Source of the DNA: Camelus dromedarius
Taxonomy: Eukaryota
Reading direction: 5' to 3'
Length of the DNA stretch: 64,000 bases
NCBI RefSeq assembly: GCF_036321535.1
Contig: NC_087436.1
Span: 54,686,001-54,750,000, forward strand
Made by a program: the position numbers and the translations under genes. Positions 24,841 through 28,010 of this stretch are shown here, piece by piece (position 1 is the first letter of the stretch; each line of letters starts with the position of its first letter). The notes below the pieces were generated by a model. That model saw nothing but the letters and a program-made list of their open reading frames with translations, did no database searches and was not told the origin of the DNA.

Positions 24841-25116
24841 TCTAGATAAGAAAACAAAATTGTGACTACTTAACTTAAAAACAGACAATTCCTAAGTTAA
24901 TTATTAAAAATGACCACAATATTATATTAAAAATCAATATAGCATTACCAAGTAGGATTTATTTCTGGAATGCATAGATGGTTCACCAGAAAATGTATTA
25001 ATGCAATTTAACACATAAATGGTCTAAATTATTAAATTAATATGGTTATCTCAATATATGTGATAAAGTTCAAAATCAATTTTATAATAAAATGACCAGA
25101 AAATTATAAACTAACT

Positions 25117-25155
25117 GCTTCTATAGCTCAGTTGTAGAGGAGAGGATTGTAGATC
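25117..25155 (+). pseudogene. Retrocopied 5' half (5' exon) of tRNA-Tyr(GTA) fused to L1
   Basis: gcttctatagctcagtt-gtagaggagaggattgtag(atc) vs mammalian tRNA-Tyr CCTTCGATAGCTCAGTTGGTAGAGCGGAGGACTGTAG(ATC): 31/37 identical by hand alignment. Anticodon GTA at 25149-25151. Confidence 0.8.
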
Positions 25156-26868
25156 TGTTGCATTTCTATGCATTAACAACAAACAATCAGAAAGAGAAAT
25201 TTAAAAAAAAATCCCATTTATAATTATATCCAAAAGAATAAAATACCTAAGAATAAATCTACTAAGGAGGTAAAAGACTTGCTCTAGGAAAACTATACAA
25301 CAATGATGAAAGAAATTGAAGGTGACACAAACAGATGGAAAGACAGACCATGTTCATGGATTGGAAGAATTAATATTGTTAAAATGACCATACTATCCAA
25401 GGCAAACTACAGAGTCAAAGCAATTCCTATCAAAATACCAATGGCATTTTTCACATTCTAAAATTTGTACAGAAACATAAAAGAACCCAAATAGCCAAAG
25501 AAAACATGAAATGGAAGAACAGATCTGGAGGTATTGCATTACCTGACTTAACACTATACTGCAAAGCCACAGTAATCAAAACATTTTGGTACTGGCACAA
25601 AAAGACACACATAGATCAATGGAACAGAACAGAGATCAGAAATAAACCCATGCACTTATAGTCAATTAATCTATGACAAAAGAGGTGAGAATACACAATG
25701 GGGAAGGTACAGGCTCTTCAATAAGTTGTGCTGGGAAAACTGGACAGCTACATGTAAAAGAATGAAATTAAAATATTTTCTCACACTGTATGCAAAAATA
25801 AACTCAAAATTAATTAAAGATCTAAATGCAAGATTGGAACCATAAAACTCCTAGGAGAAAACATAGGCAGAACATTCTTTAACATAAATCATAGCAATAT
25901 TTTTTTGGGGGGTGGATCAGTTCCCTAAAGTAAAGGAAACAAGAGCAAAATTAAACAAAACCTAAGTAAACTGAAAAAGTTTTTCACAGCAAAGGAAATC
26001 ATCAAAAAAAAAAAAAAAATGAAGACAGCCTACTGAATGGCAGAAAATATTTGCAAGTGTGACCAATAAGGGGTTAGTATCCAAAGTATATAAATAGCCC
26101 TTATAACTCAATATCAAAAAATAAACAATCCAATCAAAAAATGAGCAAAAGACTGGAATAGATATTTTTCCAAAGAAGACATACAGATGGCCAACAGGCA
26201 CATGAAAAGATTTTCAACATTGCTAATCATCAGAAAACTACAATGATATATCATGTCATATCTATCAGATGGCTATCATCAAAAAGATCACAAATAATAA
26301 ATGTTGGGGAAGAAGTGGAGAAAAGGGAAACTTCGTACACTGCTGGTGGGAAAATAATTGATGTAGCCACTATGGGAAACAGTATGGAGGTTCCTCAAAA
26401 AAATAAAAATAGAAATACCATGTAATCTCACAATTCCACTCCTGGGTATATATCCAAAGAAAACAGAAACACCAATTCAAAAAGCTACATGCACTCCAAT
26501 ATTCATAGCAGCATTATTTACAATAGCCAAGATATGAAAGCAATCTAAGTGTCCATCAACAAATGAATGGATACATAAGATGTGGTGTGTGTGTATATAT
26601 ATGGCTATATATAGCCATAAAAGAATGAAGTTTTGCCATTTGCAATAACATGGATGGACTTGGAGGGTACTATATTCAGTGAAATAAGTCAGTCAGAGAC
26701 AGACAAATACTGTAAGGTATCACTTATATATAGAATCTAAAAAATATAACAAACTAGTGAATAAAACAAAAAAAGCAGCAGACTCACAGATATAGTGAAT
26801 AAAATAGTGGTTACCAGTGGGGAGAGGGAAGAGGGAGAAGCATGATAGGGATAGGGGATTAAGAAGTA

Positions 26869-27079
26869 AAGATAAACAAGACTGTACTGTGTAGCACAGG
26901 GAAATATATACAGGATCTTGTGATGGCTCACAGTGAAAGAGAAAGTGACAATAAATGTATGTATGTTCATGTATAACTGAAAAATTGTGCTCTACACTGG
27001 AATTTGACACATTGTAGAATGATTATAACTCAATAAAAAAAAATGTTTAAAGAAAGAAAGAGATGACTGGATAAAGAAG

Positions 27080-27120
<41 letters not shown>

Positions 27121-27540
27121 AATACTACTCAGCCATAAAAAAGAATAAAATAATGCCATTTGCAGCAACACAGATGGACCTGGAGATTGTCATTCTAAAT
27201 GAGTAAGCAAGAAAGAGAAAGAAAAATGCCATAGATATCACTTATATGTGGAATCTAAAAAAAAGGACATAAATGAACTTACCTACTAAACAGAAATAGA
27301 CTCATGGACATAGAGAACAAACTTATGGTTACCAGGGGATAAAGGGGTTGGGAGGGATAAATTGGGAATTTGAAAATTGCACCTCTTGGGAGAGATGTCA
27401 ATAATAACTATCTTGATTGTGGTAATGGTTTCATTGGTGTATACATCTATCTAAAGTCATCAAATTGTACACATCAAATATGTGTAGCTTACTGTACAGA
27501 GACCATATCACAATAAAAGTGTCTTTAAAAATGAAAAAAA
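26869..27540 (+). mobile_element. Composite nested insertion: young L1 tail (26869-27055), older L1 3' UTR (27061-27380) and L1MC/MD-like 3' end (27381-27540)
   Basis: The host 3' UTR resumes after duplicated aagaagta (26861-26868 / 27541-27548). Three distinct L1 3'-end sequences lie between. Confidence 0.8.
27083..27118. repeat. (CA)n microsatellite, ~18 units
   Basis: Read directly. Confidence 0.95.
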
Positions 27541-28010
27541 AAGAAGTACAAACTATTATGTGTAAAATAAATCAGCCACAAGGATATATTGTATAGCACA
27601 GGGTATAGCCAATATTTTCTAATAACTTTAAATTGAGTATAATAACCTTTTAAAATTGTGAATCACTATGTTGTACACCTGAAACTAATATAAAATTGTA
27701 AATTAGATATGCCTTAATAAAAAAAAGAAAATTGTGAATTAAAAGGACATTCACTTGATAGAGTATTTACTAAAGAATTTTAAGCAAATATCATTTTTTT
27801 TTAAAGATCAGGACAATATAGTTTCCTATAGAACTGCAACTATACAATGCAGGTTTGGAGGTCCTGGCTAAAATCTACATGGTCTAAAAAATATTTCTTA
27901 TTTTAACATGATATAGAAAGTTGACATGATTATCTACACAGAAAGTTCAACAGAATCAAAAAGTTATTAAAGTGAAAAAGAGATTTTGCTGAATACAAAA
28001 AATCTTGCAA

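What the first reader, a model, noticed from the sequence alone, without database searches (positions are those of the whole stretch)
25098..25175. tRNA-Tyr 5' exon fused to the 5' end of an L1, with the junction at the tRNA splice site
Seen: about 38 non-L1 bases lie between the 5' TSD (25098-25114; partner 27726-27742, 14/17) and the first L1 ORF2 bases (atctgttgcatttct). Of these, 25117-25152 align at 31/37 to CCTTCGATAGCTCAGTTGGTAGAGCGGAGGACTGTAG. That divergence is similar to the TSD's, so both parts probably inserted together. Known: this is nt 1-37 of tRNA-Tyr(GTA), exactly the 5' exon that TSEN releases with a 2',3'-cyclic phosphate for the ligase RTCB. RTCB ligation has been implicated in U6/L1 chimeras. 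Inference: this may be a fossil of a tRNA splicing intermediate mis-ligated to L1 RNA and then retrotransposed. Alternative: the next ATC is shared by mature tRNA-Tyr and L1, so a microhomology-guided template switch onto spliced tRNA fits equally well.
Basis: partly seen in the sequence, partly recalled or inferred. Interest (0 to 1): 0.8.

Follow-up and report, generated by a model that had tools for sequence, protein, structure and literature searches.

The report
tRNA-Tyr front half fused to L1
An old, dead L1 jumping-gene copy carries the first 37 bases of a tyrosine tRNA at its front end, a real but already described kind of hybrid insertion, most likely made when the L1 copying enzyme hopped onto a tRNA precursor.

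Summary
Bases 25117-25152 match this genome's own tRNA-Tyr-GTA 5' exon at 31 of 37 positions (0 of 20000 shuffles reach the score). L1 homology starts at 25153 (29 sister copies). A 14/17 direct repeat brackets tRNA piece, L1 and A-tail. The tRNA-Ala-like SINE head is a much worse match.

This genome holds 19 further dispersed tRNA-Tyr 5' copies. Nearly all carry 5' leader bases and have no A-tail. Eleven run into intron bases. Two end at G37 followed by ATC, as here. ATC is the first three bases of the 3' exon.

Intronless tRNA-Thr gives the same kind of 5'-half copies. Their target-site repeats overlap the anticodon loop by a median of 4 bases. So a microhomology-guided template switch onto a tRNA-Tyr precursor is the best reading (about 0.55), against about 0.3 for a free exon, whether ligated or reached by an end jump.

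Human tRNA-half/L1 chimeras are already published (Law and Burns 2026). In their table all three sense-oriented halves are Tyr or Arg-TCT, which keeps the splicing idea alive.

The parts
25098..25114 (+). 5' copy of the target-site duplication (AGAAAATTATAAACTAA)
   Evidence: Best ungapped match between the two flanks, 14 of 17. It starts after gacc, giving TTTTCT/GG on the bottom strand, a loose L1 endonuclease-type site.
25115..25116 (+). Two extra bases (ct): either a very short pre-tRNA 5' leader or untemplated bases
   Evidence: They belong neither to the repeat nor to the tRNA. They match the last two leader bases of none of the 13 genes, so the leader status is open.
25117..25152 (+). 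tRNA-Tyr-GTA nt 1-37 (5' exon), 36 bases because of a 1-base deletion in the D loop
   Evidence: 31 of 37 identical to the 5' exon of gene L072; 0 of 20000 shuffles reach the score. A pattern running through the anticodon arm finds only this site, 4 Tyr genes and 2 Tyr retrocopies in 2.3 Gb.
25153..25155 (+). ATC, shared by L1 and by nt 38-40 of spliced tRNA-Tyr (junction ambiguity)
   Evidence: The L1 copies read ...cagaa|ATCTGTTGC. All 13 Tyr 3' exons start ATCCTTAGG.
25153..27718 (+). 5'-truncated L1, from about ORF2 codon 747 through the 3' UTR, much decayed
   Evidence: 6051 first-look candidates in the genome; the 39 scored matches other than the window's own are 83-86% identical. Coverage by sister copies is colinear. 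The ORF piece 25615-25845 matches human LINE-1 ORF2p residues 903-970, E 4.7e-21. A sister copy across the junction matches ORF2p 706-781 and the end of RVT_1. The 3' end is canonical.
26810..27045 (+). Nested short L1 3'-end fragment with its own A-run, inside the main L1 (limits approximate)
   Evidence: Sister-copy coverage drops over about 26850-27100. The sequence there reads like an L1 3' end followed by an A-run (the likeness was judged by eye against the 3' ends).
27084..27119 (+). (CA)n microsatellite grown inside ORF2
   Evidence: Read directly.
27719..27725 (+). Short A-tail of the L1
   Evidence: the L1 3' end is followed by an A-run that abuts the 3' repeat.
27726..27742 (+). 3' copy of the target-site duplication (AGAAAATTGTGAATTAA)

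Best explanation
This is one L1 retrotransposition event that produced a chimeric retrocopy. Target-primed reverse transcription started normally on the poly(A) end of an L1 RNA and copied about 2.3 kb. When the nascent cDNA ended in the complement of AUC (L1 position 25153-25155), ORF2p switched template onto a tRNA-Tyr-GTA precursor. The three cDNA bases paired with A38-U39-C40, at the 3' side of the anticodon loop. This would be an end-extended, already spliced tRNA-Tyr or, less likely, an unspliced transcript whose intron begins AUC, as in gene L110. The enzyme then copied G37 back to nt 1, plus two further bases, and the cDNA end was joined to the target.

Shown: the anatomy, the single duplication, the shared ATC, and the genome-wide habit of L1-type insertion starting in tRNA anticodon loops by short overlaps.

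Inferred: the switch itself and the processing state of the acceptor RNA.
For: 1. Anatomy: repeat, ct, Tyr nt 1-37, L1, A-tail, repeat. No separate repeat flanks the tRNA piece. The junction is unique in the genome (1 match), so this is not a repeat family.

2. The 3-base overlap ATC would be a coincidence of about 1 in 50-64 under ligation of a free exon. It recurs: of 9 junctions where a Tyr copy ends at nt 35-37 with no intron-like bases (window, L083, L085, L086, L087, L092, L093, L108, L113), 3 continue with ATC (window, L086, L087). P is about 3e-4 to 2e-3, a post hoc test.

3. Two copies, L091 and L106, both stop 6 bases into an aggtga intron, and both duplications start TTAGA. That is a repeated annealing site.

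4. Control with intronless tRNA-Thr-TGT: 12 of 12 dispersed 5' halves have target-site duplications, extra 5' bases (1-16) and no A-tail, and end at nt 35-42. In 11 of 12 the duplication overlaps the tRNA by 2-10 bases, median 4, and some overlaps reach stem bases 39-42.

5. Of the 19 dispersed Tyr copies, at least 10 have the bases just before nt 1 matching the leader of an extant gene (gcac, gatt, gttccc, gctc, gcgc), so precursors are the usual templates.

6. Spliced but leader-bearing pre-tRNA-Tyr exists in human cells (passages of bioRxiv 10.1101/2022.04.28.489951).

7. Microhomology priming in loops is the published model for tailless retropseudogenes (Noll 2015, PMC5322556; abstract, section 16 and passages).
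Against: 1. G37 is exactly the TSEN cut site, and a free 5' exon predicts the same DNA.

2. No dispersed Tyr copy shows 4 or more clear bases of 3' exon, so use of spliced tRNA-Tyr as template is never directly shown. The 3' exon 36-mer finds only the 13 genes.

3. U39 and C40 are paired in a folded tRNA.

4. In the human list the three sense-oriented half tRNAs end at 1-37, 1-35 and 1-38 by RepeatMasker coordinates. That means no 3-base overlap, and all are from intron-bearing families, which favours an exon end for the class.

5. The ATC test is post hoc on 9 junctions.

6. The two bases ct cannot be shown to be a leader.

7. No orthologous empty site could be examined.
Confidence: 0.55

Rival explanations
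1. RNA ligation. TSEN released the tRNA-Tyr 5' exon with a 2',3'-cyclic phosphate. RTCB joined it to a 5'-OH fragment of L1 RNA. The chimeric RNA was then retrotransposed as one template.
For: The tRNA part ends at G37, the splice site. RtcB joins U6 ending in a cyclic phosphate to 5'-OH L1 RNA (Moldovan 2019, PMC6789731, passages). Leader-5'-exon fragments of Tyr-GTA accumulate when RTCB is depleted (passages). In Law and Burns 2026, Table S3 sheet 7 (all 21 rows read), the 3 sense half-length cases are Tyr, Tyr and Arg-AGA, while only 1 of the other 18 (Ile-ATA, antisense) is from an intron-bearing family: Fisher one-sided p 0.003. The intron families are as listed in PMC11747266 (passage).
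Against: The ATC overlap would be chance (about 0.02), yet it recurs in two tailless Tyr copies that involve no L1 RNA partner. Between 7 and 11 of the 19 dispersed Tyr copies come from unspliced transcripts, and none needs a free exon. The L1 RNA would have to be cut 3' of an A (cagaa|AUC); by my recall, the pyrimidine-specific RNase A family and RNase L do not cut there. Intronless tRNA-Thr yields the same 5' halves.
Confidence: 0.18
2. End-to-end template jump. ORF2p reached the 5' end of a broken L1 RNA and jumped to the 3' end of a free tRNA-Tyr 5' exon (or leader-exon), without ligation and without pairing.
For: It gives the same DNA as ligation: the end at G37, sense orientation and a single duplication. 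Leader-exon RNAs exist. Template switching is the alternative named for U6/L1 chimeras (Law and Burns 2026, introduction passage).
Against: It leaves the same unexplained ATC coincidence. It needs a pre-broken L1 RNA ending exactly at 25153. Sequence alone cannot separate it from ligation.
Confidence: 0.12
3. Not a chimera. Either two independent insertions (a tailless tRNA-Tyr retropseudogene plus an L1) lie side by side, or the piece is a SINE head or a chance match.
For: Tailless Tyr 5' copies are fairly common here: 19 dispersed. The box A motif is shared with a SINE at 188 sites. The duplication is weak in an unrestricted shuffle test, 388 of 5000.
Against: No repeat flanks the tRNA piece alone; the only repeat spans tRNA, L1 and A-tail, in the right register. 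SINE heads score at most 18 against 24, and fail in the anticodon arm. The ages of the three parts agree. The abutment is exact to the base.
Confidence: 0.07

Closest known systems
Human tRNA/LINE-1 chimeric insertions (Law and Burns, Cell Genomics 2026, PMC13174262; n = 21)
   Same: A half-length tRNA (typically nt 1-37) sits at the 5' end of a 5'-truncated L1, inside one target-site duplication of 9-19 bp. Two of their rows are tRNA-Tyr halves in sense (1-37 with L1PB4, 1-35 with L1PA13).
   Different: Most of their cases (16 of 21 by my tally) are antisense to the L1, and the authors ascribe them to stress-nuclease tRNA halves plus twin priming. The case here is in sense, in another mammal, and has a 3-base overlap with the 3' exon start. 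Their main text has no hit for tRNA-Tyr or cyclic phosphate.
Tailless tRNA retropseudogenes (Schmitz et al. 2004, not held and not read; Noll et al. 2015, PMC5322556)
   Same: The same acceptor region: reverse transcription starts in the anticodon loop of processed or unprocessed tRNAs by short complementarity and runs to the 5' end. I found 19 such Tyr and 12 such Thr copies in this genome.
   Different: In those, the primer is the nicked target DNA and there is no A-tail and no L1 part. Here the primer would be the nascent L1 cDNA, so the product carries L1 and an A-tail.
U6/L1 chimeric pseudogenes (Buzdin et al. 2003, reference list only; Moldovan et al. 2019, PMC6789731)
   Same: A small Pol III RNA in sense at the 5' end of a 5'-truncated L1, within one duplication. 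The small-RNA end that is joined can carry a 2',3'-cyclic phosphate.
   Different: U6 is full length and joined at its natural 3' end, and ligation by RtcB was shown experimentally. Here the partner is a half tRNA, the join has a 3-base overlap, and nothing experimental exists.

Membership tests
L1-mediated small-RNA/L1 chimeric retrocopy | Two unrelated RNA-derived parts in the same orientation, with the small RNA 5' of a 5'-truncated L1 that ends in poly(A) | tested here: met
   Tyr nt 1-37 at 25117-25152. L1 from 25153 to a canonical 3' end plus A-run.
L1-mediated small-RNA/L1 chimeric retrocopy | A single target-site duplication brackets both parts, and neither part has one of its own | tested here: met
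   14 of 17 at 25098-25114 and 27726-27742; about 0.002 given its register, but 388 of 5000 in an unrestricted shuffle test. No repeat was seen around the tRNA piece alone.
L1-mediated small-RNA/L1 chimeric retrocopy | L1 endonuclease-type target (TTTT/AA-like on the bottom strand) | tested here: inconclusive
   The site reads gacc|AGAAAATT, i.e. TTTTCT/GG on the bottom strand. It is T-rich but not the consensus (the consensus is recalled and also quoted).
L1-mediated small-RNA/L1 chimeric retrocopy | Both parts arrived together (same age, or the same presence/absence pattern in relatives) | tested here: inconclusive
   Divergences agree: L1 10.7%, tRNA 5 of 36 substitutions (P 0.34), repeat 3 of 17.
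RtcB-ligated chimeric RNA (U6/L1 type) | The 5' partner ends at a natural 2',3'-cyclic phosphate end | tested here: inconclusive
   The end at G37 equals the TSEN cut site, but the next 3 bases also fit the 3' exon.
RtcB-ligated chimeric RNA (U6/L1 type) | The chimeric RNA exists before, and independently of, reverse transcription | not testable with these tools
   This needs RT-PCR or RNA-seq in cells. No RNA run holds the stretch (0 rows on record as RNA).
Tailless tRNA retropseudogene | No A-tail, with the duplication directly flanking the truncated tRNA | tested here: not met
   An L1 body and an A-run lie between the tRNA piece and the 3' repeat.
tRNA-derived SINE head | The sequence matches the SINE consensus beyond box A and recurs with the same flanks | tested here: not met
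   SINE heads score at most 18, against 24 for Tyr. The anticodon-arm pattern hits only Tyr loci, 7 of 7. The junction is unique.

The most novel reading that the evidence does not exclude
Sense-oriented tRNA-half/L1 chimeras, this one included, are DNA fossils of tRNA-splicing intermediates. On this reading, TSEN-cut leader-5' exons of Tyr-GTA, Arg-TCT and similar tRNAs, ending in a 2',3'-cyclic phosphate, are mis-joined by the tRNA ligase RTCB to 5'-OH L1 RNA and then retrotransposed. That would make tRNA exons a second natural RTCB substrate hijacked by L1, after U6. The hint is that in the published human list all 3 sense half-length cases, and only 1 of the other 18, belong to intron-bearing tRNA families (p 0.003). 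The authors' main text has no hit for tRNA-Tyr or cyclic phosphate.
Probability: 0.2. Interest if true: 0.65.

Novelty: new member of a known kind. Interest (0 to 1): 0.35.

Why it matters
As a single locus it is a dead, ordinary by-product of L1 activity.

Its value is as a data point on how L1 reverse transcriptase recombines with cellular RNAs. It shows that tRNA-Tyr precursors (leader-bearing, spliced or not) are recurrent templates in this mammal. It also shows that the same spot beside the anticodon is used both by target DNA primers and, apparently, by a nascent L1 cDNA.

The pattern I noticed in the published human table (sense halves are Tyr or Arg-TCT) gives a cheap, testable way to decide between ligation and template switching: a cross-mammal census of junction position against overlap length.

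Tried and rejected
- ARAGORN on the window and Rfam at gathering and at E up to 10 give no tRNA at the site. This is uninformative for a half tRNA.
- SINE-head reading: box A alone hits 188 sites, nearly all heads of a tRNA-Ala-like SINE among the 30 loci read. I rejected it because the anticodon arm does not match.
- Repeat-family or 5'-transduction reading: rejected, because the 78-base junction has 1 match in the genome, itself.
- DNA-mode search with a whole Tyr gene scored only 20 candidates and added no diverged copies.
- The tRNA-Pro-TGG control returned 20 full-length matches only, so it was uninformative.
- Pfam on three window ORF pieces gave no hit. L1 identity was instead shown through PDB ORF2p matches.
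These rows say nothing about the junction or about empty sites.
- The search of earlier findings returned nothing relevant.
- Schmitz et al. 2004 (PMC524414) is not held, so what I say of it comes from Noll 2015 and from recall.
- The supplements of Noll 2015 were not opened.
- The three human sense loci were not inspected at sequence level, because no human sequence is on hand here.

Full report
**What is there**

The window is part of contig C1 of a 2.3 Gb, 171-contig genome. Reading 24900-25500 and 27500-27900 gives this order:
- unique AT-rich DNA
- AGAAAATTATAAACTAA (25098-25114)
- ct (25115-25116)
- a 36-base tRNA-like piece (25117-25152)
- L1 sequence from 25153
- an A-run (27719-25)
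- AGAAAATTGTGAATTAA (27726-27742)

ARAGORN and Rfam report no tRNA here, which is expected for a half molecule.

**Is the 5' piece tRNA-Tyr?**

I used no recalled sequence.
- A box A pattern taken from the window hits 188 places in the genome. In the 30 loci read, these are almost all heads of a tRNA-Ala-like SINE. Box A alone therefore proves nothing.
- Extending the pattern through the anticodon arm leaves 7 hits: the window, 4 intron-bearing tRNA-Tyr-GTA genes, and 2 further 5'-exon-only copies.
- Against the 5' exon of gene L072 the window piece has 31 identical columns of 37, with one 1-base gap, score 24. Of 20000 shuffles, 0 reach it (maximum 12). The 29 SINE heads score at most 18 (median 11), and five other tRNA-like starts score at most 12.

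**Where does L1 start?**

- A search with 25153-25460 gave 6051 first-look candidates. The 39 scored matches other than the window's own locus are 83-86% identical to the query.
- The 29 sister copies fetched as loci (84-86% identical) nearly all read ...cagaa|ATCTGTTGCATTTC through the point. Upstream of 25153 the window shares only one base of seven with them.
- The window's ORF piece 25615-25845 matches human LINE-1 ORF2p residues 903-970 (E 4.7e-21). A sister copy's ORF across the junction matches ORF2p 706-781 and the end of Pfam RVT_1. The truncation therefore lies near ORF2 codon 747.
- Sister copies cover the body colinearly. The 3' end is the family's usual end plus an A-run.
- The gap in coverage near 26850-27100 is a nested short L1 3' fragment. 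A (CA)n run follows at 27084-27119.

**One event or two?**

- The 14/17 repeat is the best ungapped match between the flanks. An unrestricted shuffle test reaches its score in 388 of 5000 trials, because the DNA is AT-rich.
- Given that the repeat starts at the end of the A-run and ends 2 bases before the tRNA piece, the chance figure is about 0.002 for 25 registers.
- No repeat flanks the tRNA piece alone.
- The 78-base junction is unique in the genome.
- The ages agree. The L1 is 10.7% from the majority base of 29 copies over 308 bases. The tRNA piece has 5 substitutions in 36 (P 0.34 at that rate). The repeat has 3 differences in 17.
- I could not see an orthologous empty site.

**Which RNA was copied?**

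All 13 Tyr genes have a 15-20 base intron after G37 and a 3' exon starting ATCCTTAGG. The window's ATC (25153-55) therefore fits both L1 and nt 38-40 of spliced tRNA-Tyr.

Two 28-mer searches allowing up to 3 mismatches (25 and 34 hits, 0 in the reversed controls) gave 13 genes, one decayed gene in a cluster (L109) and 19 independent dispersed copies. I dropped L088 as a duplicate locus of L086, and L077 and L082 as overlaps of L076 and L081.

The 3' exon 36-mer finds only the 13 genes.

The 19 dispersed copies look like this:
- They have no A-tail.
- The script finds a duplication of 7-20 bases in 15 of them, and I see one by eye in L092. L089, L090 and L112 have none that is clear.
- In at least 10, the bases just before nt 1 match the leader of an extant gene.
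- Eleven run into intron-like bases. This is clear in 7 (6-17 bases: L070, L089, L090, L091, L106, L112, L114) and weak in 4 (1-4 bases: L069, L084, L107, L111).
- Five end at nt 35-37 with a TA(A) overlap into the duplication (L083, L092, L093, L108, L113).
- Three end at G37 followed by A (L085), ATC (L086) and ATC (L087).
- L091 and L106 both stop after aggtga, with duplications starting TTAGA.

ATC therefore follows in 3 of 9 junctions that lack intron bases, the window included. P is about 3e-4 to 2e-3, a post hoc test.

One gene (L110) has an intron that itself begins ATCC, so an unspliced acceptor cannot be excluded.

**Control**

Intronless tRNA-Thr-TGT gave 6 full-length hits, 12 dispersed 5' halves and 2 other fragments among 20 scored.

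All 12 halves have duplications and 1-16 extra 5' bases, have no A-tail, and end at nt 35-42. In 11 of 12 the duplication overlaps the tRNA-matching part by 2-10 bases (median 4), and some overlaps reach the stem.

So 5'-half copies that begin in the anticodon loop by short complementarity are general in this genome. They are not a mark of splicing. This matches the published tailless retropseudogene model (Noll 2015; abstract, section 16 and passages).

**Literature**

- Law and Burns 2026 (outline, passages, and Table S3 sheet 7 in full) already describe 21 human tRNA/L1 chimeras. These are mostly half-length and antisense, and the authors ascribe them to nuclease-made halves and twin priming.
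- By my tally of that table, 5 are in sense: 2 full-length Glu, and 3 halves (Tyr 1-37, Tyr 1-35, Arg-AGA 1-38).
[quoted passage not shown] So 3 of 3 sense halves, against 1 of 18 others, are from intron families (p 0.003).
- Their main text has no hit for tRNA-Tyr or cyclic phosphate.
- Moldovan 2019 (passages) and a 2026 RTCB review (passages) mention only U6 as L1's ligation partner.
- Searches found no paper linking tRNA exons to L1 chimeras. The library lacks most subscription journals.
- A preprint (passages) shows that in human cells splicing precedes end processing, that leader-5'-exon fragments appear on RTCB knock-down, and that spliced leader-bearing pre-tRNA exists.

**Verdict**

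This is a real, single-event tRNA-Tyr(1-37)/L1 chimera of a kind now known.

| Reading | Confidence |
|---|---|
| Overlap-guided template switch onto a tRNA-Tyr precursor | about 0.55 |
| RTCB ligation of a free exon | about 0.18 |
| End jump onto a free exon | about 0.12 |
| Not a chimera | about 0.07 |

The bias in the human table keeps the splicing-intermediate idea worth a proper census.

Noticed in passing
G000 loci L069, L070, L083-L087, L089-L093, L106-L108, L111-L114: There are 19 independent dispersed copies of pre-tRNA-Tyr 5' parts: leader plus 5' exon, 11 of them with 1-17 intron bases, no A-tail, most with target-site duplications. No dispersed copy of the 3' exon was found.
   Followed up: yes
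L091 (C23:14252640) and L106 (C2:110736547): Two independent Tyr copies stop at the same point, 6 bases into an aggtga intron, and both duplications begin TTAGA. This looks like a recurrent annealing site in one gene's intron; the decayed cluster gene L109 has a similar intron start.
   Followed up: partly
L110 (C5:29967257-29967444): A thirteenth tRNA-Tyr gene has a 5' exon with 3 differences in the searched 28-mer, plus further differences near its 5' end, and an intron that starts ATCC, mimicking the 3' exon start. It may be a drifting or inactive gene.
   Followed up: no
L086 (C6:61827943) and L088 (C19:39665890): The same tailless Tyr copy, with near-identical L1-derived flanks, occurs on two contigs. 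It was carried along by a later segmental duplication.
   Followed up: partly
L094-L105: Twelve tailless 5' halves of intronless tRNA-Thr-TGT carry leaders, and their duplications overlap the anticodon loop (TAAA...) by 2-10 bases in 11 of 12.
   Followed up: yes
window 26810-27045 and 27084-27119: A short L1 3'-end fragment with its own A-run is nested in the main L1. A (CA)n microsatellite has grown within ORF2.
   Followed up: partly
G000, 188 sites (30 read as L002-L031): An abundant tRNA-Ala-like SINE has a head that shares box A (many copies lacking one G) with tRNA-Tyr. It is a trap for tRNA calls made by eye.
   Followed up: partly
Law and Burns 2026, Table S3 sheet 7 (human): All 3 sense-oriented half-length tRNA/L1 chimeras are from intron-bearing families (Tyr, Tyr, Arg-AGA), against 1 of the 18 others. 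The paper's main text has no hit for tRNA-Tyr or cyclic phosphate.
   Followed up: partly
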